Assembly: GCA_951812955.1 (NCBI GenBank) | Contig: OX638340.1 | Location: forward strand, 1,536,001 to 1,600,000 | Direction of reading: 5' to 3' | DNA from: an uncultured Gemmatimonadota bacterium | Lineage (GTDB): Bacteria; JAAXHH01 | DNA length: 64,000 nt | Shown here: piece by piece, positions 9,311 through 55,962 of the stretch | Numbering within the stretch: position 1 is the first letter of the stretch | Layout: each line of letters starts with the position of its first letter | Translations under genes and position numbers: made by a program | Notes under the pieces: generated by a model | What the model saw: the letters and a program-made list of their open reading frames with translations, nothing else | Told to the model about the DNA's origin: nothing | Databases searched by the model: none

Positions 9311-9384
9311 GATGGCGGTTTATACGGTTTTACTGTAATGTGTTTTGCAATCTTGACCGGGACAACAAGTTTAAGTTCATTGCT

Positions 9385-9479: not shown

Positions 9480-9510
9480 CGTTGGACCGTAACTTCGAGA
9501 GGAGCACCCA

Positions 9511-10971: not shown

Positions 10972-11092
10972 CCACTTCGTGGGTAGGTAAGGGCAGATCA
11001 AAGGGGCGTACAAGTAGGTTTGCGGGTGGTTCAGGTAGATAGGGGCGTATTAGTAAGCGTCAGTTGCGAAGTGGGACGCTAACCCAAGTGGT

Positions 11093-12007: not shown

Positions 12008-12095
12008 GGGGTCCTTCTCCGCGAACTAGTCAAGGCAATGGACATTTCACCAAACTAACCAACCTGGCTAACCGCCTGCTATTAAAACGATTTCG

Positions 12096-40231: not shown

Positions 40232-41218
40232 ATGACGGAGGTGGACATGTCACCCATTACCGATGAGCAGATGGCATTCTTCAAAGACCAGGGATACCTG
40301 ATGGTGAGGGGGTTGCTGGATCAGGAGGAAGTACTCGATCCCGTGATCGAGGAATACGGTACCGTGCTCGATCAGTTGGCGGAAGAGCTTTTCCTGGCGG
40401 GTAAAATCGAATCGAAATACGAAGATCTGCCATTTGGCGAACGCATCACGAAAGTCTGGGGTGAAAGCGGCAAGGTCCATGCCCAGTGTTTCGATTTCAC
40501 CCTGCCCCAGGGCAACATCAAGGAAGACACGCCGTTCTGGTGCGGTCCGGCGGTGTTCAACGTCCTGACAGATCCGCGGCTGCTCGACGCCGTGGAGGCC
40601 TTCATCGGCCCCGAAATCTACTCCAACCCGGTCCAGCATGTACGCATCAAGCTTCCTGAACACTTGACGCCCATCAATCCGGCGACTGGGCGCATTCAGC
40701 TCGGCATATCCCCGTGGCACCAGGACAACGGCGTCGTCACGAAGGAGGCCGATGACACCCACATGCTCACGGTCTGGTTCTCGCTGAGGGAAGCGACGAT
40801 CGAACAGGGATGCCTCACCGTCATTCCCGAAAGCCACCGCGACGGCCTGCTGCACCACTGCCCTGACATCTGGGGCCTCGAAATTCCCGAGAAGGTGAAG
40901 GACCGGTCCGCCGCCGTTCCCATGCCGACCAAGCCCGGTGACGTCCTGTTCCTGCACAAGCACACCTGCCACTCGTCGCTGCCCAACAAGAGCAACGAGA
41001 TCCGGTGGAGCTACGACCTGAGGTACAACCCGATCGGCCAGGCCTCCGGACGGGGCGCCTTCCCGGGATTCGTGGCCCGCAGCCGGACCAATCCAGAGTG
41101 GGTCCTGACCGATCCCGTCGCGTGGAACCAGATGTGGCTGGATGCCAGGGACGCCCTCGCCGGCATGCCCAATCCGTCCTTCAACCGCTGGAGCAAGGAT
41201 CACGAAATCTGCGCGTGA
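40232..41218 (+). CDS. Phytanoyl-CoA dioxygenase (PhyH) family oxygenase (second copy in the window)
   Basis: FFKDQGYLMVRGLL N-terminus, HQDNG and later His characteristic of PhyH. Confidence 0.75.
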   Translation: MTEVDMSPITDEQMAFFKDQGYLMVRGLLDQEEVLDPVIEEYGTVLDQLAEELFLAGKIESKYEDLPFGERITKVWGESGKVHAQCFDFTLPQGNIKEDTPFWCGPAVFNVLTDPRLLDAVEAFIGPEIYSNPVQHVRIKLPEHLTPINPATGRIQLGISPWHQDNGVVTKEADDTHMLTVWFSLREATIEQGCLTVIPESHRDGLLHHCPDIWGLEIPEKVKDRSAAVPMPTKPGDVLFLHKHTCHSSLPNKSNEIRWSYDLRYNPIGQASGRGAFPGFVARSRTNPEWVLTDPVAWNQMWLDARDALAGMPNPSFNRWSKDHEICA

Positions 41219-42289: not shown

Positions 42290-42399
42290 CGGATGATCGA
42301 GTGCTGCCGCACGGATGACAGAGCGCCGCCTTACGGATGATCGAGCGCTGCCGCACGGATGATTGAGTGCTGCAACACGGATGATCGGGCGCTACCGCG
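42290..42399. repeat. Five tandem copies of a 22-bp unit CGGATGATCGAGYGCTGCCGCA upstream of an AT-rich promoter
   Basis: Read directly: cggatgatcgagtgctgccgca / cggatgacagagcgccgcctta / cggatgatcgagcgctgccgca / cggatgattgagtgctgcaaca / cggatgatcgggcgctaccgcg. Confidence 0.8.
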
Positions 42400-42511: not shown

Positions 42512-43153
42512 ATGCCGGTGAGCAGCAAGGAATTCTTTGATCGCGTCGCCCCGGACTGGGACGAAATGCGCGAGGGGTATTATTCCGAGGACGTCAGGGT
42601 GGGCGCCCTGGCGGCCGCAGCGGTCGAGAAGGGCAAAATCGCCGCGGACATCGGCGCCGGTACGGGCTTTATTTCGCAGGGTCTGATCGAGGAAGGGCTT
42701 CAGATCATCGCGGTCGACCAGTCAGAGGTCATCCTGAATGAAATGAAGGAAAAGTTCGCCCGATGGTCATCGATCGAATATCGCGTAGGGAACGCCCAGG
42801 ATATACCGATTCCTGATGAAACGGTCGACTACGCCTTTGCCAATATGTGTCTCCACCACGTTGAATCACCGCCTGTCGCCATCCGGGAAATGACAAGAAT
42901 CCTGAAACCGGCAGGAAAACTGGTGATCACGGACGCGGACGAGCATGAATTCGAGTTTCTGCGCGAAGAGCACCATGACCGCTGGCTGGGTTTCAAACGA
43001 TCCGATATCAGATCATGGTATCTGGAAGCGGGACTGGGAGAGGTAAGTGTCGAAAGCATAGGCTCCCTATGCGAAGTGCAGTCTTTATGTTGTGAAGAAT
43101 TCGCCCGTATCGGGATATTCGTGGCCTCGGGAGAGAAACGCGCAGGGCGTTGA
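42512..43153 (+). CDS. Class I SAM-dependent methyltransferase
   Basis: GGAGGG RBS. Motif I DIGAGTGF, and a LKPAGKLVITD motif. Confidence 0.8.
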   Translation: MPVSSKEFFDRVAPDWDEMREGYYSEDVRVGALAAAAVEKGKIAADIGAGTGFISQGLIEEGLQIIAVDQSEVILNEMKEKFARWSSIEYRVGNAQDIPIPDETVDYAFANMCLHHVESPPVAIREMTRILKPAGKLVITDADEHEFEFLREEHHDRWLGFKRSDIRSWYLEAGLGEVSVESIGSLCEVQSLCCEEFARIGIFVASGEKRAGR

Positions 43154-43256
43154 AGGCCACGCTGCGCGCCAGGTAGTGCTTGCTTTTGTACGGGCTACCG
43201 GCAAACTGCAAGGAATATCCGTCCTGCCCATCGAACCATTGAACCGGAACGCCAGC

Positions 43257-45107
43257 ATGCATCCTGCCACCGAACATATACACCTCGCCATCTGTCCTGA
43301 TCACAAGGCGCTTTCGCGGACCGTTGCCAGGGAGATCGTCGGGTACGCCCAGGCGCGCGCCGAGGCGGGGAAGATGGCCGTACTGGGCCTTTGTACGGGA
43401 TCCACGCCCATCGACGTGTACGGGGAACTGATCGCGCTGCACCGCGGCGGCGTCAGTTTCGAGAACATCGTCACCTTCAACCTCGACGAATACTACCCCA
43501 TGTCGCGGCAGTCGACCCAGAGTTACCACCGCTACATGCAGGAGTATCTCTTCGACCATGTGAACATACCCGAAGACCAGGTCTACATCCCGTTGGGCGA
43601 CCTCGCGCCGGAGGAGATCGAGGACCACTGCGCATGGTACGAGGAACGTATCCGATCCGTGGGCGGCATCGGCATCCAGCTCCTGGGCATCGGGCGCACC
43701 GGCCATATCGGGTTCAACGAGCCCGGTTCCCTGCCGAACACGCGCACCCGGTTGATCCGCCTGGACGAGAGTACCCGCAAGGACGCCGCTTCCGATTTCT
43801 TCGGCGAGGACAACGTGCCCATCGAGGCGGTGACCATGGGCGTCGGCACCATCCTCGACGCGGAACGCATCATCCTCATGGCCACGGGCGAGCACAAGGC
43901 GCCCATCATCCGCAAGGCGGTGGAGGGCGAGGTCAGTCCGCTCGTGGCGGCCAGTTACCTTCAGAACCATCCGAACACGACGTTCTTCATCGATCCGCCC
44001 GCGTCCAGCGAACTGACCCGGGTAAAGCGGCCCTGGCTGAACAACCACGCGGTGGAATGGTCCGACCAGCTTTCGCAACGGGCCGTGCTCTGGCTTTGCG
44101 AGCAGGCGGAGAAGCCCGTATTGCACCTGCAGCGCCGGGACTACAACGCATACGACCTCTACTCCCTGGTGGATACCGTCCAGACAGTCGACGAACTCAA
44201 CCGGAAGACCTTCGACGCGGTCCGCGCCAAGATCTACGGCCGCGAGGACTTTTTCACCAACAAGCGCTGCGTCTGCTTCTCGCCTCATCCGGACGACGAC
44301 GTCATCTCCATGGGCGGCACGCTGTACCGGTTGTCCGGCGCCGGGAACGACATTACCATCGCTTACATGACCAGCGGGAACATCGCCGTATTCGACGAAG
44401 ACGTGAAGCGGCTTATCGATTTCATCGGCCTGACCTTCCGGGACCTGGGATGCGCCCACGCGAAGTTCGACGGAATCGTGGATACGGTGAGTTCCTTCAT
44501 CGAGACGAAACTGCCCGGACAGGTGGATATCCCCGAAGTCCAGATCATCAAGACCAACATCCGCCGGTCCGAAGCCATCGCGGCGGCGTCGACGCTGAAC
44601 ATCCCGCCGGAAAAGACCCGGTTCCTGGACCTGCCCTTCTACAAGACCGGGCAGGTGAAGAAGCATCCCATCGGCGATGAAGACGTGCGGATCGTCCTCG
44701 ATATCCTGAACGACGTCCGTCCGGAAGTTGTTTTCGTCGCCGGCGACCTCTCCGACCCGCACGGAACCCACCGCATATGCAAGGAAGTCATCGACCGGGC
44801 CCTCACTGTCTACGACAGGACGGACCCCGACGTGTGGCTTTACCGGGGCGCGTGGCAGGAGTGGGAAGTGGACGAGGCGGACGTGTTCATTCCCCTCTCG
44901 TACGAAGATCTCCAACGCAAGATCCAGGCCATATTCCGGCACGAATCCCAGAAGGATACCGCCATGTTCCCCGGTGCGTACGACGACAGGGAGTTCTGGG
45001 AGCGGGTGCAGGACCGGAATACCCACACGGCTCGGCGTCTAGACAAACTGGGTTTCCCCCAGTACTACGCCATGGAAGCCTTCGTCCTCGAGCGCGGCGG
45101 GGCGTGA
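43257..45107 (+). CDS. nagB: Two-domain glucosamine-6-phosphate deaminase-like protein: NagB/SIS-type deaminase N-domain fused to an LmbE/PIG-L-like deacetylase-fold C-domain (the NagB-II architecture described in Bacteroidota)
   Basis: LGLCTGSTP...TFNLDEYY...GIGRTGHIGFNEPGS (NagB), then the C-terminal PHPDDDVISMGGT LmbE-like motif. Start placed at internal ATG 43257; the track start 43092 would overlap the previous gene by 60 nt. Confidence 0.75.
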   Translation: MHPATEHIHLAICPDHKALSRTVAREIVGYAQARAEAGKMAVLGLCTGSTPIDVYGELIALHRGGVSFENIVTFNLDEYYPMSRQSTQSYHRYMQEYLFDHVNIPEDQVYIPLGDLAPEEIEDHCAWYEERIRSVGGIGIQLLGIGRTGHIGFNEPGSLPNTRTRLIRLDESTRKDAASDFFGEDNVPIEAVTMGVGTILDAERIILMATGEHKAPIIRKAVEGEVSPLVAASYLQNHPNTTFFIDPPASSELTRVKRPWLNNHAVEWSDQLSQRAVLWLCEQAEKPVLHLQRRDYNAYDLYSLVDTVQTVDELNRKTFDAVRAKIYGREDFFTNKRCVCFSPHPDDDVISMGGTLYRLSGAGNDITIAYMTSGNIAVFDEDVKRLIDFIGLTFRDLGCAHAKFDGIVDTVSSFIETKLPGQVDIPEVQIIKTNIRRSEAIAAASTLNIPPEKTRFLDLPFYKTGQVKKHPIGDEDVRIVLDILNDVRPEVVFVAGDLSDPHGTHRICKEVIDRALTVYDRTDPDVWLYRGAWQEWEVDEADVFIPLSYEDLQRKIQAIFRHESQKDTAMFPGAYDDREFWERVQDRNTHTARRLDKLGFPQYYAMEAFVLERGGA

Positions 45108-45377
45108 CGTCCCCTCGGTGCGTTCGAGGCGTTTTTAACATGCGACGCGCCGGCCTCGGCCTCCCGACGAACCCCTCGAAAAGCAGTTGCTCTCCCGATC
45201 TTCAATCCATTATATTGGCCTGCTTGCTTGACGGCACCTGACCGGGGTCGCGACGGCGCTGAGATCCCGCACGGTGACATCCGCACGTCGAACGATCAGG
45301 ATGTCGAATCAAACTGGGTGTTGAACGATCCGGAAGTAGAACCATCGCCCGGGAACCGGGGACCATCGGAGGCACAA

Positions 45378-46325
45378 GTGCGCATAGCGGTATTCGGTAC
45401 AGGAGGCGTAGGCGGCTACTATGGAGGACGGCTTGCCGAGGCAGGAGAGGAAGTCGTATTCATCGCACGCGGCGAGCATCTGGAAGCCCTGCGGCAGAAC
45501 GGCATCCGCGTGGAAAGCACGAAGGGTGATTTCACGCTGCCCTCCATCGAAGCCATCGGGGATCCAAGGGAAGCCGGCGACGTGGACGTCGTCATGCTTT
45601 GCGTCAAGTGCTGGCAGGTGCCCGAAGCCCTCGACGGTCTCCGGCCCTTGCTCGGACCCGATACCTGTATCCTGCCCATGGAGAACGGGGTGGAGACGCC
45701 GGAGCAACTCGCCGCGGAGTTCGGCTGGCGGCACGTACTCGGCGGCGTCTGCGGGATCGTCTCGTTCATCGCCGAACCGGGTCTCATCCGGCATGTCGCC
45801 TACGAACCATTTGTCAATTTCGGGGAATGGGACAACCGCAGCAGCGAACGGGTCGACCGGTTGCGCCTGGCATTCGATCGCGCCAGGGGACTCATCGTCG
45901 ATACGCCGCCGGATATTCAGGCCGCCATGTGGCGCAAGTACATCCTCATCGCTTCGTGGAGCGGGATCGGCGGCGTGACCCGCGCGCCGATTGGCATCGT
46001 CCGCAGCCAGCCCGGCACCCGGCGGCTCCTCGAGACGGCCATGGAGGAGATCCACCGCGTGGCCACCGCCGTGGGCATCAGCCTGCCGGACGACATCGTA
46101 GCCCGGACCCTGGCCATTCTGGACAGCGTCGAATACGGCGGCACCGCCTCCATGCAGCGGGATATCATGGAAGGTAGATTCTCCGAGTTGGAAGCCCAGA
46201 CTGGCGCGCTGGTCCGCATGGGCAGGGAAGCGGGCGTGCCCACGCCGGTCAACGATTTCGTGTACCATTCGCTGCGGCCGATGGAACTTCGAACCCGAAA
46301 GCAGGTATCCTTCGAGACGCCCTGA
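45378..46325 (+). CDS. panE: 2-dehydropantoate 2-reductase (ketopantoate reductase, ApbA/PanE family)
   Basis: GTG start with a GGAGG RBS. IAVFGTGGVGGYYGG Rossmann motif and the ApbA C-terminal domain. Confidence 0.75.
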   Translation: MRIAVFGTGGVGGYYGGRLAEAGEEVVFIARGEHLEALRQNGIRVESTKGDFTLPSIEAIGDPREAGDVDVVMLCVKCWQVPEALDGLRPLLGPDTCILPMENGVETPEQLAAEFGWRHVLGGVCGIVSFIAEPGLIRHVAYEPFVNFGEWDNRSSERVDRLRLAFDRARGLIVDTPPDIQAAMWRKYILIASWSGIGGVTRAPIGIVRSQPGTRRLLETAMEEIHRVATAVGISLPDDIVARTLAILDSVEYGGTASMQRDIMEGRFSELEAQTGALVRMGREAGVPTPVNDFVYHSLRPMELRTRKQVSFETP

Positions 46326-46612
46326 GTCGCGGGCAGTATACATTCAGGGTCCGGAGTCGCGGGCAGTATCGTTTCAGGCGCACTGTGGCGCCCGGGGCGC
46401 GACCCGAGACGATCCGAGACGACCCGAGACTCATCTGACGACCGAGGCGCGATGTGGCGCCCGGGGTACGACCCGAGACTCATCTGACGACCGAGGCGCA
46501 CTGTGGCGCCCGGGGTACGACCCGAGACTCATCTGACGACCGAGGCGCGATGTGGCGCCCGGGGCGCGACCCGAGACGACCCGAGATGATCCGAGACACA
46601 TCTGACGACCGA
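46324..46612. repeat. Complex intergenic repeat array. It has two copies of GAGTCGCGGGCAGTAT, then four copies of a ~49-bp unit. Each unit contains a GGCGC-n6-GCGCC hairpin and GACCCGAGAC sub-repeats.
   Basis: Units GGCGC(a/g)(c/a)TGTGGCGCCCGGGG(t/c)(a/g)CGACCCGAGACTCATCTGACGACCGA begin near 46376, 46443, 46492 and 46541. The first and last units carry extra GA(C/T)CCGAGAC copies. Confidence 0.8.
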
Positions 46613-46635
46613 ACCGGCCTGCCGGAGCAACCCGC

Positions 46636-47634
46636 ATGAAGTCATTTCTTGAACGCATTGCCGACGATCGTCCCCTCCTTTACGACGGCGGTTTCGGCAC
46701 CGAGCTCTTCGTCCGGGGCATCGAACTGGCCAACAGCGCACTGGCCAACGAACTTTACCCCGACATTGTCAGAGACATCCATTTCGATTATATTGAAGCA
46801 GGCGCGGAAGTGGTGGGAACGAATACGTTCGTGGCGTCTTATCCCCATCTCGAAATGGCCGGGAAGGACGCCTCGGAATCCGAGCAGCTGATCCGGCTTT
46901 CCTTGGAACACGCCCGAGCCGCCATCGAGCGAAGCGGCAGGGAGGTGTACCTGGCCGGTTCCATCGGACCATTGCCGGGCGCCATCGAGGCCGACAGCGG
47001 CGACACGGAGTTCGGCATTGCCAACAGCATCGCCCGGGACGCCCACGAGCGCGTGGGAACGGTCCTGGCGGCAGGCGGGGTGGATTTCTTCTGTGTCGAG
47101 ACCATGTTCTCCGCCAACGAGGCGGCCCTGGCCATCGACGTATTGAGGCAGTTCGGCCTGCCCATCGCCGTGAACCAGACGTACAAATATACGAAGGACC
47201 GCGCCACGGGCGAGGTCGTTTACAAGACCGACTGGGGTCATTCGGCAGCCGATCTCCTGGAGATCCTGGCAGGCGGCGCGCAGTCTGGCGGTGGCGACCT
47301 GCTCGAGCATGTGCAGATCGTCGGCCTGAACTGCGGGGCGGAATCCCGGCGCGACGAGCACACGGGCATGCCTTACGCCATCAGCGGCATCGGCCAGTTG
47401 AAACGCGCCATGGAAGCCAGGGCAGAGGAACCGAAACGCATGATGGCCTACCCGAACGCCGGGAAGGCGCGTCTCGATGAGCAGCACCGGACCTATTACG
47501 ACAATACCCCGGAAGAGATGGCGGCCTCCGTACCGAATCTCCTCGAGGCCGGCGCTTTCTTCATCGGCGGCTGCTGCGGCACGGGCGTCGCCCACATCCG
47601 GGCCTTCCGCGAAGCGATGGACAGGATGGCATGA
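46636..47634 (+). CDS. Stand-alone homocysteine S-methyltransferase-domain protein (Pfam S-methyl_trans, like the MetH N-terminal Hcy-binding module), with zinc-thiolate ligands conserved
   Basis: DGGFGTEL N-terminus. Conserved Cys in VGLNCGAE and the GGCCGT motif (FFIGGCCGTGV). Confidence 0.85.
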   Translation: MKSFLERIADDRPLLYDGGFGTELFVRGIELANSALANELYPDIVRDIHFDYIEAGAEVVGTNTFVASYPHLEMAGKDASESEQLIRLSLEHARAAIERSGREVYLAGSIGPLPGAIEADSGDTEFGIANSIARDAHERVGTVLAAGGVDFFCVETMFSANEAALAIDVLRQFGLPIAVNQTYKYTKDRATGEVVYKTDWGHSAADLLEILAGGAQSGGGDLLEHVQIVGLNCGAESRRDEHTGMPYAISGIGQLKRAMEARAEEPKRMMAYPNAGKARLDEQHRTYYDNTPEEMAASVPNLLEAGAFFIGGCCGTGVAHIRAFREAMDRMA

Positions 47635-47900
47635 CGAAGTACCAGGTTCTTTACTGGCGTGACATTCCGGCGCAGGTGCGCGTCTACGGAGGACGGCGTC
47701 CACTTTCACGCCAGATGCCCGACTGGTTCCAGCAGGAAATCGACCGGGTGGCCATGCGGGACGGACTCACTGGTACCGACGCCTACCTGGACGAGTGGCA
47801 CTGGTCTGAAAAACAGGAATGGACCGGCGAAGAGAAAGAACCCGATACGGTGGCGGAAGCCATTTTGAAGCGGCTCGAAGACGGGTTCGACAAGGGATAA
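47631..47900 (+). CDS. Small conserved hypothetical protein (89 aa) translationally coupled (ATGA overlap) to the Hcy-methyltransferase gene
   Basis: ORF overlaps the upstream stop by 4 nt. No family assigned from sequence alone. Confidence 0.4.
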   Translation: MTKYQVLYWRDIPAQVRVYGGRRPLSRQMPDWFQQEIDRVAMRDGLTGTDAYLDEWHWSEKQEWTGEEKEPDTVAEAILKRLEDGFDKG

Positions 47901-47904
47901 AACC

Positions 47905-47994
47905 GGACGCGACGGGCAAGGAGCAAATGCGGCGGGCAGTTATCAAGTCCGTCCGCAACCAGCCACAGCAATGGTCGGACGCGACGGGCAAGGA
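47905..47994. repeat. Two direct copies of a ~22-bp element GGACGCGACGGGCAAGGAGCA(N)GGGCAG, 67 bp apart
   Basis: ccggacgcgacgggcaaggagcaaatgcggcgggcag and tcggacgcgacgggcaaggagcaggaccgggcag, immediately upstream of the ORF at 48035. Confidence 0.7.
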
Positions 47995-48034
47995 GCAGGA
48001 CCGGGCAGCATCGAAAACGTAAGAGGCGGCAGAT

Positions 48035-48673
48035 ATGGGTCAAACAGTCGACATAGGCAGGCGCATCGAACTGGTTCCGCTGGATCCCCATTTCGGGGAC
48101 ATATCCATCGGTCTTTACCGCCAGCACGACGATACCGGGCCGGTCTACCAGGTATACACCTACAGCCGGCGGGAAGGCGTCGAGGACCGTATCGCCTTTG
48201 TGGTAAAGGCCATGGGAGTACTGGGCGGGATGGAACAGGCCAGCGGCGGACGCCTTCGGTTCCCCTGCGGCCATGAACATCACATGGGGGTAAAGCGGGT
48301 GTTTCTCGAAGCCTGCAAGCTGGACCCTGCCGGCCCCGCGGAACCGCGGCCCCTGGAGATCCTCGACAAGAAATCGGGCCTTCAAATCCAGGTCCTGAGC
48401 GAGGGAGACGGCGTGTATCGCGTCACGGCCCATGGGGAAGGCAAGGACCGCGAGCGTCGCATTTCCTTCATCGCCGGTGGTCTGATGAAGCTGGCCGAGA
48501 TAGACGAGGTAAGCGGCACGCTGGACCAGGTGGTTTTTCCCTGCGCCCGTGTCCACGACGCGATGATCGGGCAATTGCTGGTCCGCGCGCCGAACGTCCG
48601 GGCCGTCCTGCGCGAGCAAGAGGCCGTGCTGAGTAGGGGCGTCCTGGCGGCGCCCAGCCAGCAGGATGGTTAG
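48035..48673 (+). CDS. Hypothetical protein (212 aa) inside the corrinoid methyltransferase cluster
   Basis: ORF with plausible coding composition. PCGHEHHMG His-rich motif. No family assigned. Confidence 0.45.
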   Translation: MGQTVDIGRRIELVPLDPHFGDISIGLYRQHDDTGPVYQVYTYSRREGVEDRIAFVVKAMGVLGGMEQASGGRLRFPCGHEHHMGVKRVFLEACKLDPAGPAEPRPLEILDKKSGLQIQVLSEGDGVYRVTAHGEGKDRERRISFIAGGLMKLAEIDEVSGTLDQVVFPCARVHDAMIGQLLVRAPNVRAVLREQEAVLSRGVLAAPSQQDG

Positions 48674-48751
48674 TAGTAACCATAGAGCCCGAATGATGAC
48701 TACGCGATCACGCGATCGTCGAAAGCTCGATCGATCGATAAGGAGGCAGTC

Positions 48752-49795
48752 ATGAGCGACGACCTCATCAGGGAGATGAAGGGCCGGGATCGGGTGCTGG
48801 CCGCCCTCAGGCGGGAGCCCGTGGATCGCACGCCCGTATGCAATCCGACGTCTGTCGCCACGGTGGAGCTGATGGACCTGGTCGACGCCCCCTTTCCGGA
48901 TGCCAACCGGGACCCGGAACTGATGGCCCGGCTGGCGGCCACCGGGTACACCGAGCTGGGTTTCGACAGCATCATGCCGGTCTTCACCATTATCCAGGAA
49001 TCCTCCGCGCTGGGCTGCAAGATCCAGTGGGAGCAAAAGGACAACTGGCCCACGGTTAAGATGCGCGAGCCTATCTGGGAAGACGTGGACGACATCAACG
49101 TCCCGTCCGATTTCCTTACGCACCAGGACACGAAATGCGTCCTCGACGCCATCAGCCTGCTCAAAAAGGAATACGGCGACGAGGTGGCCATCATCGGCAA
49201 GACCATGGGGCCGTGGTCGCTGGGTTACCACTGCTTCGGCGTGGAGCCCTTCCTGCTCATGTCCCTGGATGACCCCGGGAAGACCCACCTCGCCCTCGAC
49301 CGTATGAAGGAGGCCACAGTGGAGTTCGGCATCGCGCAGATCGAGGCCGGGGCGGACGCCCTGACCCTGCCGGACCACGCCACGGGCGACCTGGTGAGCG
49401 GCGAGTATTACCGGCGGTTCCTGAGGGACCTGCACATCGAACTCGTCGAACGGATCCCCATCCCGCTGATCATGCACATCTGCGGAAGGACCGTGGACCG
49501 CATGGGCTACATCGCGGAGACCGGCTTCGCAGCCTTTCACTACGATTCGAAAAACAAGCCCCAGGAATCCATGGAGGCCGTGGACGGCCAGATATCCCTC
49601 GTGGGCAACATCAACAACCCCGAGACGCTCTTCGCACGGGGTCCCGAAGAGGTGACCGGGGAAGTTTGCAGAAACCTGGAGCACGGGATTCACATGGTGG
49701 GACCGGAATGCGCGGTACCCCTCCAGGCGTCCATCGAGAACCTGAAGGCGATCCCCCAGGCCGTGAAAGACTGGCACCGCACACACGCGGCTTGA
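48752..49795 (+). CDS. Uroporphyrinogen-decarboxylase (URO-D) family methyltransferase, MtaA/MtbA/CmuA-like (corrinoid-dependent methyl transfer)
   Basis: URO-D/MtaA fold. HxC zinc motif (PLIMHICGRT) plus a downstream Cys (GPECAVP). Confidence 0.8.
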   Translation: MSDDLIREMKGRDRVLAALRREPVDRTPVCNPTSVATVELMDLVDAPFPDANRDPELMARLAATGYTELGFDSIMPVFTIIQESSALGCKIQWEQKDNWPTVKMREPIWEDVDDINVPSDFLTHQDTKCVLDAISLLKKEYGDEVAIIGKTMGPWSLGYHCFGVEPFLLMSLDDPGKTHLALDRMKEATVEFGIAQIEAGADALTLPDHATGDLVSGEYYRRFLRDLHIELVERIPIPLIMHICGRTVDRMGYIAETGFAAFHYDSKNKPQESMEAVDGQISLVGNINNPETLFARGPEEVTGEVCRNLEHGIHMVGPECAVPLQASIENLKAIPQAVKDWHRTHAA

Positions 49796-49935
49796 GGCGC
49801 AAAGGAGTCAGCTGTACGCGAGGCGCAAAGGCCACGCATTGAAAACGGGATCAGCCGCAGCGGCCGGTGCGGTCCGACTCACCGCGCGGCAGGCGGCAAA
49901 ATCGGCATGAACCAGGGAGGACCGGGAAGAAGCGC

Positions 49936-50700
49936 ATGGCAGAACTCAACGATATAGCCAACGACTTTCTTAAAGACGAAATAGAAGAGTTCATCGAAAG
50001 ACCCAACGAGCGGACGCGGATCATCGATGCCTTCGCCCGGGCGACGCCGGCCATGCAGGAGATCTCCGCGGCGCTCATCGACGGGGACAACGGCACGGTC
50101 GACACGCTTACCCGGGCGGCGCTGGACGATGGTATCGAGGCCCTGGAGGTGATGGACGACGGCCTGATCAACGGCATGAGCATCGTGGGCATCAAGTTCC
50201 GGGAGAACTTCATCTTCGTCCCGGAGGTCCTGGCCTGTGCCCGCGCCATGAAGGCCGGCATGGCCCACATCGAACCCATTCTCTCCGCCTCGGGCATCCA
50301 GCCGGTCGGCAAGGTCATCATGGGCACGGTCAAGGGCGACCTTCACGACATCGGTAAAAACCTGTGCATCATGATGCTGCGCGGCGCCGGGTTCGTGGTC
50401 CATGACCTCGGTGTAGACACCTCCGAGGACGAGTTCATGGACGCCGTGGAGGAACACGAAGCCCCCCTGGTGGGCATGTCGGCCCTGCTCACCACGACCA
50501 TGCCCAACATGGGCAAGACCATCGACGCTTTCATCGATAACGACATGCGTGAAGACGTAAAGATCATGGTGGGCGGCGCGTCGGTCACCCAGGAGTTCGC
50601 CGATGACATGGGCGCCGACGGCACCGCCGAAGACGCGGTTGGATGCGTGGAACTGGCCAACCGCCTCCTCGTGGAACTCAAGCAGGAACAGGAAGCCTGA
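49936..50700 (+). CDS. Cobalamin-binding corrinoid protein (MtaC/MtbC/MttC-like; B12-binding-2 cap plus a Rossmann B12-binding domain)
   Basis: DxHxxG (GDLHDIGKN), SxL (MSALL) and GG (MVGGAS) cobalamin-binding motifs. Start placed at the internal ATG giving MAELNDIANDFLKDE. Confidence 0.85.
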   Translation: MAELNDIANDFLKDEIEEFIERPNERTRIIDAFARATPAMQEISAALIDGDNGTVDTLTRAALDDGIEALEVMDDGLINGMSIVGIKFRENFIFVPEVLACARAMKAGMAHIEPILSASGIQPVGKVIMGTVKGDLHDIGKNLCIMMLRGAGFVVHDLGVDTSEDEFMDAVEEHEAPLVGMSALLTTTMPNMGKTIDAFIDNDMREDVKIMVGGASVTQEFADDMGADGTAEDAVGCVELANRLLVELKQEQEA

Positions 50701-50845
50701 GTAAGTTAATCGCACCTCACGGCCTGGCGGACCGGCGGTCCGATCCCGTTTCGGCGCGGGTGGTTAAGTGGCACGGCCGGGAAAGCAGCCGGGCTGGCAG
50801 ATTGGCGCGGCTGGCCGCAGCAGGATCCCTTCCCTACATTAATCC

Positions 50846-52873
50846 ATGAAAAAGATCGACAAGGCGGCGTACCAGAAGCGCCTGGACCGCATCACGGCCA
50901 TCTTCAAGGACATGATGGCTCACGCGACAGAACAGGCCACCTACCGCTGCCCATACAAAAACCGTTTTGACGAATGTACCGCCCGGTTCGGGTGCCGTAA
51001 CCAGCGCAAACCGAGGGAAGCCGGCGGCCTGCTCATGTGCGGAGGGGACGACAAACTCGACTACCGCGGCGCATGGGAGACGGAGGAAGCCCCGCACGAA
51101 AGACCGGAGCAGGTACATACGACGGATCAAAAACCGGACGCACGCCCGTCTGCGGTGCGAGAAGATGTTGTGGCTACGAGCATGGATGAAGCAGATCGTA
51201 CAGGACGGGCCGCGCCGAATGTGACCATGGATACGTCCTCAGATCCACCCGGCGGCACGGTAACCGACGGCACGACGACCCGGCCCGCGGTCATCGGCAA
51301 ATCCATCTTCGATTACGCCGACGACCTCGCCGTCCAGGTGCCCACCTCCTGTTTCCGCAACGGCATATGTCACGAGTGCATCGTGGAAATCAAACAAGGG
51401 ATGGAAGGGCTCGTGCCCAGGTCCAAGCCGGAATCCTTCCTGCGCGAGAACTACCGGCTCGCCTGCCAGGCGCGCGTGATCGACCCCAATGTGGACATCG
51501 CCTTCGCTCCGCTCCGCCGAACGCCCAAGATCCTGACCGTTACCGAAGAAAAGGAAACGCCGCTCGATCCCCTGGTCACCCGGCGGGGCGATGACATCTT
51601 CTACGACGGCGAGCAGGTCGACCTGTTCCGCGGACACGTGTACGGGCTCGCGATCGACCTGGGCACGACCACGGTGGTCATGGATTTCGTGGACCTGGAG
51701 ACCGGCCGGAGCGTCCACGTCTGTTCCTTCGAGAACCCCCAGCGCTTCGGCGGCAGCGACGTGATGCACCGCATCTCATACGACGGCGGGTTCGAGGACG
51801 AACTCTGGAACGCCATCATCAACGCCGTCAACCACGAGATCATGGACTGGTGCGAGCGGACGGAAACCGCGCGGCAGGAGATCTACGAGATCGTCGTGGC
51901 GGGCAACTCCACCATGCGCGACCTCTTCTTCCGCCTCGACGTACAGAGCATCGGCCAGAAACCCTACAAGTCGCAGATCGAAAACGAATACCTCGCGGGC
52001 GAACGAGATACCACGGCGCTGACCATCGGCACCCGGCGGCTCGGCCTGCGGGCCAATCCAAAGGCCCGTGTCTACGGCCTGCCCATTATCGCCAGCCACG
52101 TGGGCGGCGACGTGACGGCCGACCTGGCCACCGTCGACCTGGCTGCGCGGCCGGGCGTATCCATGCTGGTGGACGTGGGCACCAATACCGAGGTGGTCGT
52201 GGCAGGCAACGGACGCATGGTCACGGCTTCGTGCCCCGCCGGTCCCGCCTTCGAGGGCGGCGGAATCAAGTACGGCATGCCAGGCTACGAAGGCGCCATT
52301 GAAACATTGAAGTGGGAAGACGGGCGGTTCGACTGGCGCACCATCGGAGACTCCGCGCCCCAGGGCATCTGCGGCTCCGGGCTGATCGATCTCCTCGCCG
52401 AACTGCGCCGCCACGGCATGATGAGCCCGAAGGGGGTGTTCCCCGACCGGAAACAATTCGAGGTGCCCGTCGTAGCCGAATCCGGCATCACCCTGTCCCG
52501 GCAGGACGCCAGCAACCTGGCCCAGGCCAAGGCAGCCAACTACTGCGGCCAATACATCGTCCTCCGCGCCTTCGGCGTCGCGCCGGGCGACGTGGACCGG
52601 CTCTTCCTTGCGGGCGGTTTCGCCAACTACGTGGACGTGCGAAACGCCATCGACATCGGGTTCCTGGCCCCCGTGCCCGAAGACCGCATCTTCAAGGTCG
52701 GCAACGCCGCCGTCCAGGGTGCCCGGGAGATCCTCCTCTCCCGTTCGCGCCGCAAGGAAATGGAAACGCAGGTCAAGGACATCGAGCACATCGAGCTCGA
52801 GACTACCCCCGACTTTTTCGAGATCTTCGTCGAAGCCTGCCAGTTCAAGCCTATGCCGGGCGTGCTGGTGTAG
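50846..52873 (+). CDS. RACo/RamA-like ATP-dependent reductive activator of corrinoid enzymes ([2Fe-2S] ferredoxin domain plus ASKHA ATPase, DUF4445), with an extra Cys-rich N-terminal extension
   Basis: Plant-type ferredoxin cysteines SCFRNGICHECIVE...LACQARV. ASKHA phosphate-1 motif GLAIDLGTTTVV. A C-terminal DUF4445-like region. N-terminal about 70 aa with 5 Cys (CPYKNRFDECTARFGC...CGG). Confidence 0.75.
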   Translation: MKKIDKAAYQKRLDRITAIFKDMMAHATEQATYRCPYKNRFDECTARFGCRNQRKPREAGGLLMCGGDDKLDYRGAWETEEAPHERPEQVHTTDQKPDARPSAVREDVVATSMDEADRTGRAAPNVTMDTSSDPPGGTVTDGTTTRPAVIGKSIFDYADDLAVQVPTSCFRNGICHECIVEIKQGMEGLVPRSKPESFLRENYRLACQARVIDPNVDIAFAPLRRTPKILTVTEEKETPLDPLVTRRGDDIFYDGEQVDLFRGHVYGLAIDLGTTTVVMDFVDLETGRSVHVCSFENPQRFGGSDVMHRISYDGGFEDELWNAIINAVNHEIMDWCERTETARQEIYEIVVAGNSTMRDLFFRLDVQSIGQKPYKSQIENEYLAGERDTTALTIGTRRLGLRANPKARVYGLPIIASHVGGDVTADLATVDLAARPGVSMLVDVGTNTEVVVAGNGRMVTASCPAGPAFEGGGIKYGMPGYEGAIETLKWEDGRFDWRTIGDSAPQGICGSGLIDLLAELRRHGMMSPKGVFPDRKQFEVPVVAESGITLSRQDASNLAQAKAANYCGQYIVLRAFGVAPGDVDRLFLAGGFANYVDVRNAIDIGFLAPVPEDRIFKVGNAAVQGAREILLSRSRRKEMETQVKDIEHIELETTPDFFEIFVEACQFKPMPGVLV

Positions 52874-53550: not shown

Positions 53551-54495
53551 ATGTTCCACCTCCGTCCCGCCCGTCCCTCGTCCGATGAATCGGGCATCGC
53601 TTCCGTCGTCAACGCCTTCGAACAGAATCCGGTTTCAGTAGATACCGTACGCGAGTGGCTGACCCATGGTGCGCCGGGCAGAATCAGCTATCGCCAGGTG
53701 GCTGTGACCCGTGACGACGTCGTTGCAGGTTACGCGGTGTCGGTGCATGAAACCTGGAATCCGGAAGGGCAGTTCTATGCCTGGGTGGGCGTGGCGCCTG
53801 CGTGGCGGGGACGAGGTATCGGCTCAGCGCTGTACATAGACTTGATGCAATTTCTGGAGCAACACGACGCCGGTACGATTACGAGCGAGGTCCGGGACGA
53901 CTGCGCCATCTCGCTGGCATTCGCCGAGCGACACGGATTCGAAAAAGACCGGCATCTGTTTCAGTCGAGCCTGGACCTCGAAGCCTTCGACGAATCACCC
54001 TATCTGGGCACGCTTGGCGGAGTCGCCGAGGCGGGTATACGTGTGCGCTCAATTGCGGATTTCGGCGACACGCCGGACGCTCGCAGGAAACTCTACGAAG
54101 TCAACGCGATAACCGACCAGGACGTGCCTGGCTGGATCGGACCCGGGCTTTCCTTTGAGGAATTCAACGAGTGGGTGTACGTTTCGGAATGGTACCGGCC
54201 GGATGGCCAGTTGCTTGCGGCCGATGGGGATCGCTGGGTCGGGATCTGTGCGGTGCGGCTATACCCCGATGCGTGCCTGGCCTTCAACGTGCACACCGGG
54301 GTGATCCGGGCGTATCGAAAGCGTCATGTCGCGGTGGCGCTGAAACTGGCCGCGATTCGCTATGCCAGGAATCAAGGCGCGCGATCACTCAGTACGCACA
54401 ACGATTCGATGAACGGCCCCATGCTGGCGCTCAACCGGAAATTAGGTTATGTCCCGGAGCCGGGACGGTATACGCTGCGTGGGACGATGACCTGA
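53551..54495 (+). CDS. GNAT-family N-acetyltransferase with tandem GNAT domains
   Basis: Acetyl-CoA-binding motif WRGRGIGSALY in domain 1 and a second GNAT-like half (RKRHVAVALKLAAIRYARNQGARSL). Confidence 0.7.
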   Translation: MFHLRPARPSSDESGIASVVNAFEQNPVSVDTVREWLTHGAPGRISYRQVAVTRDDVVAGYAVSVHETWNPEGQFYAWVGVAPAWRGRGIGSALYIDLMQFLEQHDAGTITSEVRDDCAISLAFAERHGFEKDRHLFQSSLDLEAFDESPYLGTLGGVAEAGIRVRSIADFGDTPDARRKLYEVNAITDQDVPGWIGPGLSFEEFNEWVYVSEWYRPDGQLLAADGDRWVGICAVRLYPDACLAFNVHTGVIRAYRKRHVAVALKLAAIRYARNQGARSLSTHNDSMNGPMLALNRKLGYVPEPGRYTLRGTMT

Positions 54496-54575: not shown

Positions 54576-54977
54576 TTACCCTCCCATCATCGCAATACGC
54601 CGTGCCATCCACTCTACGTAGGCCGTACGTGTCATTCCCCGCCTGTCTGCCTCGCTATCTATAAACACCGCCACGCCTTCGTCAATCGCCATATGTATGC
54701 GCACGCTACGCCCGGACTGACGGATTAACGGCACTGTCGTCAGGGCCTCTCCCGGCTCTGTACTAACCTGCTCCAGTTTACTTGGTTGGATTACCCTGTC
54801 CCCATCAGTTTCCGTTTCAATTACGTAATCTCGTAGTGCTTCTTCAGCGTTCAGCAATGCCTCGTCGATGGTGTCGCCCATAGCGGCGATTCCTGGAAGA
54901 TCCGGGAAGGATACGCCATAGGCACCCATTTCACCATCTATCAATGCCGGATATCGGATAGCATTAAATACCTGCAT
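54576..54977 (-). CDS. hicB: HicB-family antitoxin with a C-terminal ribbon-helix-helix-like DNA-binding tail
   Basis: YPALIDGEMGAYGVSFPDLPGIAAMGDTIDEAL HicB N-domain. C-terminal RGMTRTAYVEWMARR. Confidence 0.75.
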   Translation of the reverse strand: MQVFNAIRYPALIDGEMGAYGVSFPDLPGIAAMGDTIDEALLNAEEALRDYVIETETDGDRVIQPSKLEQVSTEPGEALTTVPLIRQSGRSVRIHMAIDEGVAVFIDSEADRRGMTRTAYVEWMARRIAMMGG

Positions 54978-55001
54978 GTCTGAACCCTCCTACATCAAGG
55001 A

Positions 55002-55244
55002 CTAGATCTGCCAGTTTGCTTTCTTCGCAATGGTTCGTACGACACCTGGCGATATTCTCCTGTGTCTCGGCAGCGTAATTACACCTCGATTACATGGATG
55101 GCGGTAAACGTCATGCTTGGCCCCATGCCGGAACAGGTACCAACCTTCCTTTTTAATCGTCGCTCGATTTTGGTCGTGTTGGATTCCATTAAGCCACGCA
55201 ATTTTGTGCAAATATATGCACATAATGAGTTTCTTGTCAATCAT
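55002..55244 (-). CDS. hicA: HicA-family mRNA-interferase toxin
   Basis: KKEGWYLFRHGAKHDVYRHPCNRGVITLPRHRRISPGVVRTIAKKA matches the HicA pattern (GW...G.H....HP......P.H). Directly upstream of hicB. Confidence 0.75.
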   Translation of the reverse strand: MIDKKLIMCIYLHKIAWLNGIQHDQNRATIKKEGWYLFRHGAKHDVYRHPCNRGVITLPRHRRISPGVVRTIAKKANWQI

Positions 55245-55366: not shown

Positions 55367-55606
55367 ATGAAATCCCGTGTGAAGAAATGGGGCAACAGCC
55401 TGGCACTTCGCATCCCGAAACCTGTCACGGTCCAGATGGGCGTCAAGGACGATTCACCCGTTGTACTCGTGCTCCGGGGCAAGGAATTGACCCTTGTACC
55501 GTTGGAACGAACTCATCTGAAACTCCCCGAGTTGCTTTCGGGCATCTCGAGACATAACCTGCACGGAAGAACTAGCATCGGAAGCCCCGGTGCCGGTGAA
55601 GCATAA
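55367..55606 (+). CDS. mazE: MazE/PemI-family antitoxin (AbrB/SpoVT-type swapped hairpin)
   Basis: KKWGNSLALRIPK signature. Stop overlaps the mazF start. Confidence 0.75.
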   Translation: MKSRVKKWGNSLALRIPKPVTVQMGVKDDSPVVLVLRGKELTLVPLERTHLKLPELLSGISRHNLHGRTSIGSPGAGEA

Positions 55607-55962
55607 TGGGTACAACGACCTACGTACCCGTTCGGGGCGAGGTGGTGTGGGTCTACTCCCGAGCGCGGGAGGGATCATACCTGCCTTCGAGGCGTCCCGC
55701 CGTTACCATATCTCCCGAACCCTACAATCGTCGGACCGGCCTGGCTCTTTTCTGCCCGGTCACTGGCGAAGAGAAGGGATATCCCTTCGAAGTCAAGATT
55801 CCACCCGGACTGCCGGTGCCCGGGGTTATCCTGTCCGATCAGTTGGAAAGCGTGGACTGGCGATCCGGTGCGATGGAACGGATCTGTGCGCTGCCCTCGG
55901 AGACGATGGATGAAGTCCTCCGAAAATCCGCGGCGCTGCTCGATGGGGAAGACCGGCCTTGA
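55606..55962 (+). CDS. mazF: MazF/PemK-family endoribonuclease toxin
   Basis: VPVRGEVVWVYS...RPAVTISPEPYNRRTGLALFCPVTGEEKGYPFEV...SDQLESVDWRS fits the PemK/MazF consensus. Confidence 0.8.
   Translation: MGTTTYVPVRGEVVWVYSRAREGSYLPSRRPAVTISPEPYNRRTGLALFCPVTGEEKGYPFEVKIPPGLPVPGVILSDQLESVDWRSGAMERICALPSETMDEVLRKSAALLDGEDRP

What the first reader, a model, noticed from the sequence alone, without database searches (positions are those of the whole stretch)
46324..52873. Corrinoid-protein methyltransferase cluster pairing two zinc-thiolate methyltransferase modules (MetH-type Hcy domain plus UroD/MtaA-like) with a RACo activator, and no pterin-binding module
Seen in sequence: a co-directional cluster of six genes. 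(1) A stand-alone Hcy S-methyltransferase-domain protein with zinc ligands intact (LNCG Cys plus GGCCGT). (2) A translationally coupled 89-aa unknown. (3) A 212-aa unknown. (4) A URO-D/MtaA-family methyltransferase with the HxC zinc motif. (5) A corrinoid protein with DxHxxG/SxL/GG. (6) A RACo-type [2Fe-2S]+ASKHA reductive activator. Established knowledge: the MtaC/RACo/URO-D parts are the hallmark of corrinoid methyl-transfer shuttles (methanogen MtaABC, bacterial O-demethylases, glycine-betaine MtgABC). The Hcy-binding module is normally a domain of MetH. Here there is no MeTr/pterin-binding module, and two thiol-activating zinc methyltransferases sit around one corrinoid protein. Inference: a modular, folate-independent methionine-forming route. 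A methyl donor (substrate unknown) would be demethylated by the URO-D-like enzyme onto the corrinoid protein, then passed to homocysteine by the Hcy module. Alternatively it is a thiol-to-thiol methyl shuttle for methylated sulfur compounds. The two uncharacterised proteins, the RACo N-terminal Cys-rich extension and the preceding hairpin repeat array add novelty.
Basis: partly seen in the sequence, partly recalled or inferred. Interest (0 to 1): 0.8.

Follow-up and report, generated by a model that had tools for sequence, protein, structure and literature searches.

The report
Corrinoid methyl hub feeding methionine synthesis
This is a real six-gene vitamin-B12 methyl-transfer cluster that joins the parts of a "split" methionine synthase to a methanogen-type methyltransferase and its constant, uncharacterised 212-aa partner; it recurs in sponge-symbiont phyla and in ocean SAR202 bacteria, but its methyl substrate is unknown and no paper describing it was found.

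Summary
Six co-directional genes lie at 46636-52873:
- H: Hcy methyltransferase (PF02574)
- V: 89-aa protein, which is Pfam PF13769, not an unknown
- ORF3: 212 aa, no family
- U: MtaA/CmuA-family methyltransferase
- C: corrinoid protein
- R: RACo activase with an extra N-terminal 4-Cys module

All metal and cofactor ligands are present and invariant in relatives.

H, C and R are the known parts of a split cobalamin methionine synthase, as in Phaeobacter and Ruegeria MtgC/D/E plus RamA.

What is new is the ORF3-U pair. It is adjacent in 79 of 80 related loci, and the one exception is a contig end.

The lack of a pterin module is local. Most other lineages carry MTHFR and a pterin-binding methyltransferase in the same operon (3-U-C-N-R-F-P-H-V). 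Compact versions without them occur in the window's clade, Opitutales and SAR202. Whether the window genome has a pterin module elsewhere could not be determined.

Most likely this is a RACo-activated corrinoid hub. H makes methionine, and U with ORF3 links the hub to an unknown, probably sulfur-type, substrate.

The upstream repeat array is strain-specific. I rate it a new variant of a known kind, interest about 0.6.

The parts
46321..46612 (.). Intergenic tandem/hairpin repeat array between panE and H (two 28-nt units, then 49-nt units with a GGCGC-N6-GCGCC hairpin core). It is strain-specific and probably not part of the system.
   Evidence: The core motif occurs 4 times against 0 expected. 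Among 83 loci it is found only in L004, the 97%-identical relative.
46636..47634 (+). H: stand-alone homocysteine S-methyltransferase module (332 aa) with Zn ligands C233, C313 and C314.
   Evidence: PF02574, 171 bits. The best solved relatives are the Hcy domains of MetH. The ligands are invariant in 39-40 loci.
47631..47900 (+). V: 89-aa PF13769 ('Virulence_fact') protein, translationally coupled to H by an ATGA overlap. It has no cysteines and is rich in conserved Trp/Tyr.
48035..48673 (+). ORF3: 212-aa protein of an unnamed family and constant upstream partner of U. It has two tandem beta3-alpha-alpha repeats, each with an FPCxxxH motif (C78/H82, C170/H174-D175), and a conserved disordered tail RGVLAAPSQQ.
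48752..49795 (+). U: MtaA/CmuA-family (URO-D fold) zinc methyltransferase, 347 aa, with ligands H242, C244 and C320.
   Evidence: 31.6% identical to M. mazei MtaA 4ay7 over 329 aa. It is the best-conserved gene of the cluster outside the window's own clade, with median 83% identity there. NCBI names it 'MtaA/CmuA family methyltransferase'.
49936..50700 (+). C: corrinoid (cobalamin-binding) protein, 254 aa, with cap + Rossmann domains and DxHxxG/SxL/GG. The ORF is open from a GTG at 49867.
   Evidence: PF02607+PF02310. Best solved relative is 1y80 at 211 bits. 44-52% identical to B12-binding proteins on alphaproteobacterial and Gemmatirosa replicons. Motifs.
50846..51100 (+). N: N-terminal ~85-aa four-cysteine module of the activase (C35, C44, C50, C65), followed by a variable low-complexity linker.
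   Evidence: Present in all 59 loci with the activase. It is in frame with the RACo core in most and a separate ORF in another frame in 13. It is called as a separate 79-105-aa gene in SAR202, L088 and L089. No Pfam or PDB match. The cysteines are invariant.
51272..52849 (+). R: RACo-type reductive activase core, with a [2Fe-2S] ferredoxin domain (C169/175/178/207), the RACo middle domain and the ASKHA ATPase domain.
   Evidence: PF00111, PF17651 and PF14574. 240 bits to RACo 3zyy. The cysteines are invariant.

Best explanation
The cluster encodes a RACo-activated corrinoid methyl-transfer hub of the split-methionine-synthase type.

Shown by sequence and synteny: corrinoid protein C is the methyl carrier. 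The activase (N module + R) has the domains known to reduce Co(II) to Co(I) with ATP. H has the intact Hcy-Zn site of MetH-type modules. U is an MtaA-like zinc methyltransferase.

Inferred:
1. H, helped by the small protein V, takes the methyl group from CH3-Co(III)-C and makes methionine.
2. U, working with its constant partner ORF3, connects the same corrinoid protein to a second substrate. This is most likely a methyl-thioether or thiol-type compound, acting as an extra methyl donor: X-S-CH3 + Co(I) gives X-SH + CH3-Co(III).
3. In most lineages the operon also carries a pterin-binding methyltransferase and MTHFR. The hub is therefore normally coupled in both directions to the folate C1 pool, as in the Ruegeria MtgB-C-D-E scheme with U+ORF3 in the place of MtgB.

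In the window's lineage the folate genes are not nearby, leaving the compact unit H-V-3-U-C-(N)R.
For: - Domains and ligands.
- Synteny: 3-U-C-R is contiguous wherever the contig allows, and H-V lies directly upstream or 3-7 kb downstream.
- Full operons 3-U-C-N-R-F-P-H-V, with start-stop overlaps in L088; L089 and L090 have the same order but no H nearby.
- The same unit, V-H-3-U-C-N-R, occurs in 33%-GC SAR202 with U 63%, C 64% and R 52% identical but H only 28%. The link to an Hcy methyltransferase has therefore been kept across very deep divergence.
- C is 44-52% identical to B12-binding proteins on alphaproteobacterial and Gemmatirosa replicons. One of these sits next to a trimethylamine-methyltransferase-family gene.
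- A V domain is fused to a corrinoid protein in Gemmatirosa.
- Split MetH with a RamA-like activase is genetically established (PMC5764234). A shared corrinoid protein serving both a demethylase and methionine synthesis is established in Ruegeria (PMC12478193).
- U is 31.6% identical to MtaA. MtaA-like enzymes act on thiols or thioethers in either direction, for example MtpA with MMPA (10.1101/548461).
- A divergent FCD-type GntR regulator sits upstream of ORF3 in 43 of the 83 loci examined. This fits a substrate-induced operon.
Against: - No biochemical or genetic data exist for any member.
- The substrate and direction of U are unknown.
- Methylation of Co(I) by thioethers is thermodynamically unfavourable (10.1101/548461).
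- ORF3's role is not known, and its Cys/His motif is lost in some distant members.
- I could not show that the window genome has, or lacks, a pterin methyltransferase, MetH or MetE elsewhere.
- 17 Poribacteria loci have ORF3-U alone, so the pair can also work away from C and R.
Confidence: 0.55

Rival explanations
1. A strictly folate-independent methionine synthase. In the window's lineage, Opitutales and SAR202, U+ORF3 replace the pterin module altogether. The only route to methionine is X-CH3 to U to C to H to Met, with no methyl-tetrahydrofolate involved.
For: - Compact H-V-3-U-C-R units with no F or P within +/-10 kb occur in three unrelated lineages.
- The SAR202 copy sits among housekeeping genes (argS, cysS, ispDF), which suggests a biosynthetic role.
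- No F or P occurs in the 64-kb window.
- Folate-independent methionine synthases that draw on corrinoid proteins exist in other families (PMC7857596).
Against: - Orthologous H, C and R sit in one operon with P and MTHFR in most lineages. The ancestral system is therefore folate-coupled.
- Absence from 20-64 kb says little about a 3.8-Mb genome.
- Split-MetH genes are scattered in Phaeobacter too (PMC5764234).
Confidence: 0.2
2. U is on the acceptor side. Like MtaA or MtbA in methanogens, and like the Mlp enzymes proposed for methyl-S/Se metabolism, it passes the methyl group from CH3-Co(III)-C to a thiol or selenol. Candidates are sulfide, mercaptopropionate, or a cysteine of ORF3. The methyl group comes from methyl-THF through the pterin module. 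H and U would then be two parallel outlets of one hub.
For: - U is an MtaA-like protein.
- Methyl transfer from methyl-cobalamin to thiolate is the favourable direction (10.1101/548461).
- Kountz & Balskus propose that the methyl group carried on the corrinoid protein of mlp clusters is passed on to a thiol such as sulfide (PMC10418091).
- No MT1-type gene (MttB or MtaB family) is in any of the clusters, whereas P, a methyl donor to corrinoids, often is.
Against: - Compact clusters lack P.
- A GntR/FCD regulator and an MTHFR next to the genes look catabolic.
- No obvious benefit or acceptor is indicated by the neighbours.
Confidence: 0.15
3. Juxtaposition without coupling. H (+V) is a direct, cobalamin-free Hcy methyltransferase of the BHMT/MmuM kind that merely lies beside an unrelated U-C-R corrinoid system.
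For: - H scores below every curated equivalog cutoff. It matches Bmt, MmuM and YitJ-type models as well as MetH.
- PF02574 enzymes with direct donors exist.
Against: - The H-V pair stays linked to 3-U-C-R, or to P, in at least six phyla and in different orders.
- V is fused to a corrinoid protein in Gemmatirosa, next to RACo and another H.
- Related stand-alone H proteins are genetically part of the split MetH (PMC5764234, PMC12478193).
Confidence: 0.05

Closest known systems
Split cobalamin-dependent methionine synthase and the MtgB-C-D-E hub of Roseobacters (Phaeobacter inhibens, Ruegeria pomeroyi; PMC5764234, PMC12478193)
   Same: Both have a stand-alone PF02574 Hcy module, a stand-alone PF02607+PF02310 corrinoid protein and a RamA/RACo-type activase instead of the MetH reactivation domain. 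In relatives of the window there is also a separate PF00809 module and an adjacent MTHFR. One corrinoid protein is shared between methionine synthesis and a demethylase.
   Different: The demethylase position is held by an MtaA-like URO-D enzyme plus ORF3 rather than an MttB-family MtgB. No DUF1638 was found. Extra parts are V (PF13769) and the N 4-Cys module. The genes form one operon rather than being scattered. The host phyla differ (Latescibacterota, Poribacteria, Gemmatimonadota, Acidobacteriota, Opitutales, SAR202).
Type 1 mlp gene clusters (MtaA-like proteins + corrinoid protein + Ram/RACE, no H4folate methyltransferase; Kountz & Balskus, PMC10418091)
   Same: Both have a bacterial MtaA-like zinc methyltransferase clustered with a corrinoid protein and a RACo-type activase. 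Both lack a folate methyltransferase in the cluster, and both have a proposed link to methyl-sulfur or methionine metabolism.
   Different: Type 1 clusters need at least two Mlps (Mlp2 and Mlp3) and occur in obligate anaerobes, mostly Firmicutes. This cluster has one Mlp, an ORF3 partner, and an Hcy methyltransferase with V.
Methanogen methyl-thiol systems: MtaA/MtaC, MtsA/MtsB, and MtpA/MtpC for methylmercaptopropionate (10.1101/548461; PDB 4ay7)
   Same: Same URO-D fold and the same HxC...C zinc site. Methyl exchange occurs between a corrinoid protein and a thiol or thioether.
   Different: The final acceptor here is homocysteine through a MetH-type module, not coenzyme M. U falls below the MtaA and MtbA equivalog cutoffs (234 against 400; 196 against 600). 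These systems have no ORF3 counterpart.
Chloromethane pathway CmuA/CmuB/MetF2 of Methylorubrum extorquens CM4
   Same: The operon logic of the full form matches: an MtaA/CmuA-family methyltransferase + corrinoid + pterin methyltransferase + MTHFR.
   Different: CmuA is a fused methyltransferase-corrinoid protein. U gave no tblastn match to plasmid pCMU01 at E<=1e-5, although that plasmid is in the collection searched.
Core (folate-independent) methionine synthases MesA-D (PMC7857596)
   Same: Methionine would be formed from a methyl-corrinoid protein rather than directly from methyl-folate.
   Different: Those enzymes are MetE-type. Here the Hcy module is MetH-type (PF02574).

Membership tests
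Split cobalamin-dependent methionine synthase (MtgC/D/E + RamA type) | Stand-alone PF02574 Hcy module with three Zn cysteines | tested here: met
   (171 bits). C233, C313 and C314 are present and invariant.
Split cobalamin-dependent methionine synthase (MtgC/D/E + RamA type) | Stand-alone corrinoid protein (PF02607+PF02310) with DxHxxG | tested here: met
   44-52% identical to B12-binding proteins on alphaproteobacterial and Gemmatirosa replicons.
Split cobalamin-dependent methionine synthase (MtgC/D/E + RamA type) | Separate pterin-binding (PF00809) methyl-THF module | tested here: inconclusive
   Absent from the 64-kb window. Present in the same operon in many related lineages. The rest of the window genome could not be searched.
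Split cobalamin-dependent methionine synthase (MtgC/D/E + RamA type) | RamA/RACo-type ATP-dependent reductive activase instead of the MetH AdoMet domain | tested here: met
   PF00111+PF17651+PF14574. 240 bits to RACo 3zyy.
Split cobalamin-dependent methionine synthase (MtgC/D/E + RamA type) | DUF1638 accessory protein | tested here: not met
   No protein of the cluster hits PF07796. It could be encoded elsewhere.
Split cobalamin-dependent methionine synthase (MtgC/D/E + RamA type) | Genes required for methionine prototrophy | not testable with these tools
   Needs genetics in a cultured carrier.
MtaA/CmuA family methyltransferases (TIGR01463) | Score above the curated cutoff and the HxC...C zinc site | tested here: met
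   242.8 against 235.4, and NF004889 258 against 244. H242, C244 and C320 align with MtaA and are invariant in 78 loci.
Methanogen MtaA / MtbA (methylcobamide:CoM methyltransferase equivalogs) | Equivalog-level score | tested here: not met
   NF040654 234 against 400; NF041608 196 against 600.
Uroporphyrinogen decarboxylase HemE | HemE equivalog score | tested here: not met
   TIGR01464 67 against 303. MtaA is far closer than any solved HemE.
Type 1 mlp gene cluster | At least an Mlp2 and an Mlp3 together with a corrinoid protein and Ram/RACE | tested here: not met
   Only one URO-D gene per cluster. Definition from PMC10418091.
Glycine betaine MtgABC / MttB-superfamily demethylase systems | An MttB-family (PF06253) substrate methyltransferase, and an MtgC-specific corrinoid score | tested here: not met
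   No such gene in the cluster. MtgC models score 188 against 370 and 180 against 310.
CmuA chloromethane methyltransferase | Fused methyltransferase-corrinoid protein similar to CmuA | tested here: not met
   U and C are separate genes. No match of U to pCMU01 at E<=1e-5.
RACo reductive activator | [2Fe-2S] domain + middle domain + ASKHA domain | tested here: met
   Cys169/175/178/207 are invariant. The extra N module is not part of described RACo.

The most novel reading that the evidence does not exclude
A widespread marine methionine synthase that needs vitamin B12 but no folate. An MtaA-like zinc enzyme, with a previously unseen 212-aa partner of new fold, would strip methyl groups from an abundant methyl-sulfur compound (MMPA, methanethiol, DMS or similar). 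It would hand them, through one corrinoid protein, straight to homocysteine. The system would be maintained by an activase with a new four-cysteine module. It would operate in sponge symbionts and in pelagic SAR202.
Probability: 0.2. Interest if true: 0.8.

Novelty: new variant of a known kind. Interest (0 to 1): 0.6.

Why it matters
Corrinoid methyltransferase hubs decide which methylated compounds bacteria can use and how they make methionine. Only in 2025 was such a hub shown to tie glycine-betaine breakdown to methionine synthesis in Roseobacters.

This cluster looks like a second, unrelated input module for the same kind of hub. The genome-collection scan found 372 relatives of ORF3, and the best 80 come mainly from the phyla that dominate sponge microbiomes; the system also occurs in surface-ocean SAR202.

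Identifying its substrate would add a route to the marine methyl-sulfur or other C1 budget. It would also assign functions to three unstudied protein modules: ORF3, PF13769 and the activase N module. A related cluster in the cultured Gemmatirosa kalamazoonensis makes part of this testable.

Tried and rejected
1. Riboswitch control: Rfam at gathering scores found nothing in the window or in seven related loci.
2. Promoter and terminator scans across the cluster gave background numbers only.
4. V and the N module: no solved-structure match.
5. I tried to learn whether the window's genome has a pterin methyltransferase. I looked for that genome's contig lengths among the top hits of a pterin-methyltransferase search. 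None matched, but only 120 of more than 3000 hits are shown, so this is inconclusive.
6. Methyl-halide (CmuA-like) hypothesis: rejected at the level of similarity. Not excluded biochemically.
7. Functional role for the upstream hairpin repeats: rejected, because the repeats occur only in this strain and its nearest relative.
8. Literature searches found no description of the cluster. Terms tried were PF13769, K14080 with sponge, mtaA with Poribacteria or Latescibacteria, and SAR202 with corrinoid.
9. The idea that ORF3 is the Gemmatirosa 403-aa unknown, or occurs elsewhere in the window: a profile search found nothing.

Full report
**Observation**

The region holds six co-directional + strand genes.

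- H (46636-47634) is a stand-alone homocysteine S-methyltransferase domain: PF02574, 171 bits. Its three zinc cysteines are C233 in LNCG and C313/C314 in GGCCGT.
- V (47631-47900) overlaps the H stop by ATGA. It is not an orphan. It belongs to Pfam PF13769 'Virulence_fact', 59 bits against a cutoff of 25.
- ORF3 (48035-48673, 212 aa) hits nothing in Pfam or NCBIfam, even at E=10.
- U (48752-49795) is a URO-D-fold protein. It passes the curated MtaA/CmuA cutoffs (TIGR01463 243 against 235; NF004889 258 against 244). It fails HemE (67 against 303) and the MtaA and MtbA equivalogs.
- The closest solved relative of U is M. mazei MtaA, 4ay7 (182 bits, 31.6% identity over 329 residues). H242-x-C244 and C320 align with the HxC and C motif positions of MtaA.
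- C (most likely 49936-50700, 254 aa) has the B12 cap and Rossmann domains with DxHxxG, SxL and GG.
- R (50846-52873) has a [2Fe-2S] ferredoxin domain, the RACo middle domain and the ASKHA domain. It scores 240 bits to RACo 3zyy. An additional N-terminal four-cysteine segment precedes these domains.

All these ligand positions are invariant in every related locus that carries the gene. The upstream tandem/hairpin repeat is real. Its core occurs 4 times against 0 expected.

**Where it comes from**

The exact proteins lie on a 3.81-Mb contig. A scan of the genome collection (one genome for each of 185,579 species) with an ORF3 profile found 372 loci that encode a relative of ORF3. The best 80 come from MAGs labelled Latescibacterota, Gemmatimonadota, Poribacteria, Opitutales and Acidobacteriota.

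Many of these bins have names typical of sponge-microbiome studies. Poribacteria are a sponge-associated candidate phylum (PMC3909097). The window also carries a 13-repeat Sel1 protein, a sulfatase and toxin-antitoxin pairs. I read these as typical of sponge symbionts, from my own knowledge and not tested here.

A distant ORF3 subfamily led to 33%-GC SAR202/Dehalococcoidia contigs that include Tara Oceans surface samples. The system is therefore not confined to sponges.

**Anatomy across relatives**

tblastn of the window's proteins against the loci shows ORF3 directly upstream of U in 79 of 80 loci. The median gap is 35 nt. The one exception ends at the contig edge.

C and the activase follow wherever the contig allows. 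The exceptions are 17 Poribacteria loci that carry the ORF3-U pair alone.

Three arrangements exist:

- The window's clade, plus a few other Gemmatimonadota and Latescibacterota: (nagB-)panE-H-V-3-U-C-R.
- Opitutales: H-V-3-U-C-R.
- Poribacteria, other Latescibacterota, Acidobacteriota and Gemmatimonadota: GntR(FCD)< 3-U-C-R, then optionally a PhyH gene, then F-P, and then V and H in varying order.

Here F is MTHFR+DUF5981 and P is a PF00809 pterin-binding methyltransferase. Locus L088 shows 3-U-C-N-R-F-P-H-V as one tight operon with overlapping starts and stops. L089 and L090 have the same order without H nearby.

SAR202 has V-H-3-U-C-N-R between argS and a 2-hydroxyacid dehydrogenase. Identities to the window there are U 63%, C 64%, R 52%, N 47%, V 35%, H 28% and ORF3 26%.

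Outside the window's own clade, U is the most conserved gene, at a median of 83%. ORF3 is at 62% and H at 67%.

**The accessory parts**

The N module of the activase is present in all 59 loci that have the activase. It is fused in most and is a separate ORF in another frame in 13. It is called as a separate 79-105-aa gene in SAR202, L088 and L089. It is therefore an independent, conserved four-cysteine module, with no family or structure match.

V belongs to a large family of more than 6000 proteins. The 120 best hits are all single-domain proteins of about 85-105 aa. It always sits next to H or P. In the cultured Gemmatirosa kalamazoonensis it is fused to the C-terminus of a corrinoid protein. 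That fusion lies in a cluster of URO-D-family gene, C::V, RACo, an unknown and H. I take the fusion as a hint that V works at the corrinoid protein. Its model (pLDDT 92) has no solved-fold match.

**What it is**

H, C and the activase are the recognised parts of a split cobalamin-dependent methionine synthase:

- In Phaeobacter inhibens, separate Hcy, pterin and B12-binding proteins plus a RamA-like DUF4445 protein are needed for methionine synthesis (PMC5764234).

The window's C is 44-52% identical to B12-binding proteins on alphaproteobacterial and Gemmatirosa replicons. One example, in Aminobacter, sits beside a trimethylamine-methyltransferase-family gene.

The full operons of relatives contain everything such a synthase needs (F, P, C, H, N-R), plus ORF3-U. 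The simplest reading is a corrinoid hub in which ORF3-U is an additional port. It would be analogous in position to MtgB but unrelated in fold.

U is MtaA-like. By the criterion of Kountz & Balskus it counts as an 'Mlp', having more than 25% identity to a characterised CoM methyltransferase (PMC10418091). Characterised members of that branch handle thiols or thioethers. One is MtpA, which exchanges methyl between cobalamin and mercaptopropionate/MMPA (10.1101/548461). I therefore favour a sulfur-type substrate.

Direction is open:

- Donor-side use fits the divergent FCD-GntR regulator, the neighbouring MTHFR and the compact clusters without P.
- Acceptor-side use fits thermodynamics and the absence of any other MT1-type gene.

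The 'folate-independent' inference rests on the lack of a pterin module. That lack is true for the window and for +/-10 kb in its clade, Opitutales and SAR202. But orthologous genes sit with P and MTHFR in most other lineages. I could not examine the rest of the genome; an indirect attempt was inconclusive.

The cluster is not a type 1 mlp cluster, because it has a single Mlp. It is not an MtgABC system, because it has no MttB-family gene. It is not CmuA-like, because U gave no match to pCMU01.

The repeat array occurs only here and in the 97%-identical relative L004. It is irrelevant to the system. No riboswitch was detected.

**Novelty**

Public annotation names the genes one by one: 'MtaA/CmuA family methyltransferase', 'corrinoid protein', 'ASKHA domain-containing protein', 'homocysteine S-methyltransferase family protein', 'virulence factor' and 'hypothetical protein'. 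My literature searches found no description of the ensemble.

The modules are of known kinds. The combination, the constant ORF3-U pair and the N module are new. I class it as a new variant of a known kind.

The unknown substrate limits what can be claimed. Three things make it worth follow-up: the breadth of distribution, the tie to methionine synthesis kept across deep divergence, and a cultured organism with a related cluster.

Noticed in passing
L093 (Gemmatirosa kalamazoonensis KBS708 plasmid 1, NZ_CP007129.1) 6731-12918: A cultured soil bacterium has a related pterin-less cluster: a divergent URO-D-family gene, a corrinoid protein fused to a PF13769 domain, RACo without the N module, a 403-aa protein with no family, and an Hcy methyltransferase. 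It has no ORF3 homologue.
   Followed up: partly
window 54576-55244 (-) and 55367-55962 (+): Two type II toxin-antitoxin pairs, HicB/HicA and MazE/PemK-MazF, lie about 1.7-3 kb downstream of the cluster, after a GNAT acetyltransferase gene (53551-54495).
   Followed up: yes
window 4108-5880 (-), with the tandem repeats at 4700-5125: A 590-aa protein with 13 Sel1 repeats, which explains the 108-nt DNA tandem repeats. A sulfatase lies at 9511-10971 and two PhyH-family dioxygenases lie at 11093-12007 (-) and 40232-41218 (+). By my own knowledge these are typical of sponge symbionts.
   Followed up: partly
window 42290-42398 and 9381-9469: Short intergenic tandem repeats: 22 nt x 5 upstream of a SAM-methyltransferase gene, and 19 nt x 4.7 upstream of the sulfatase gene. 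This genome seems prone to such arrays, including the one upstream of H.
   Followed up: no
window 43092-45107 (+): A 671-aa fusion of a glucosamine-6-phosphate deaminase-like domain with a PIG-L deacetylase domain (NF002557, 848 bits). It is syntenic with panE and the cluster throughout the window's clade. A functional link is unlikely.
   Followed up: partly
L070 and L072 (Acidobacteriota contig CBDFLD010000014.1): Two copies of the ORF3-U-C-R-F cluster lie about 60 kb apart on one contig.
   Followed up: no
L058, L059, L061, L062, L064-L068, L077-L083 and others (Poribacteria): 17 loci carry the ORF3-U pair alone, without the corrinoid protein or activase nearby. U there is still about 80-84% identical to the window's.
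   Followed up: partly
window 45228-46325; L025 16287-17354; L084 12369-13367: Three unrelated families of 2-oxoacid/2-hydroxyacid oxidoreductases sit next to the cluster in different lineages: PanE/ApbA in the window's clade, Ldh_2 in Poribacteria and 2-Hacid_dh in SAR202. This may be a hint to the substrate or a coincidence.
   Followed up: no
L001 2675-4702: In one metagenome contig with the identical U, the activase gene carries an in-frame stop between the N module and the core, and is called as two genes (106 + 548 aa).
   Followed up: partly
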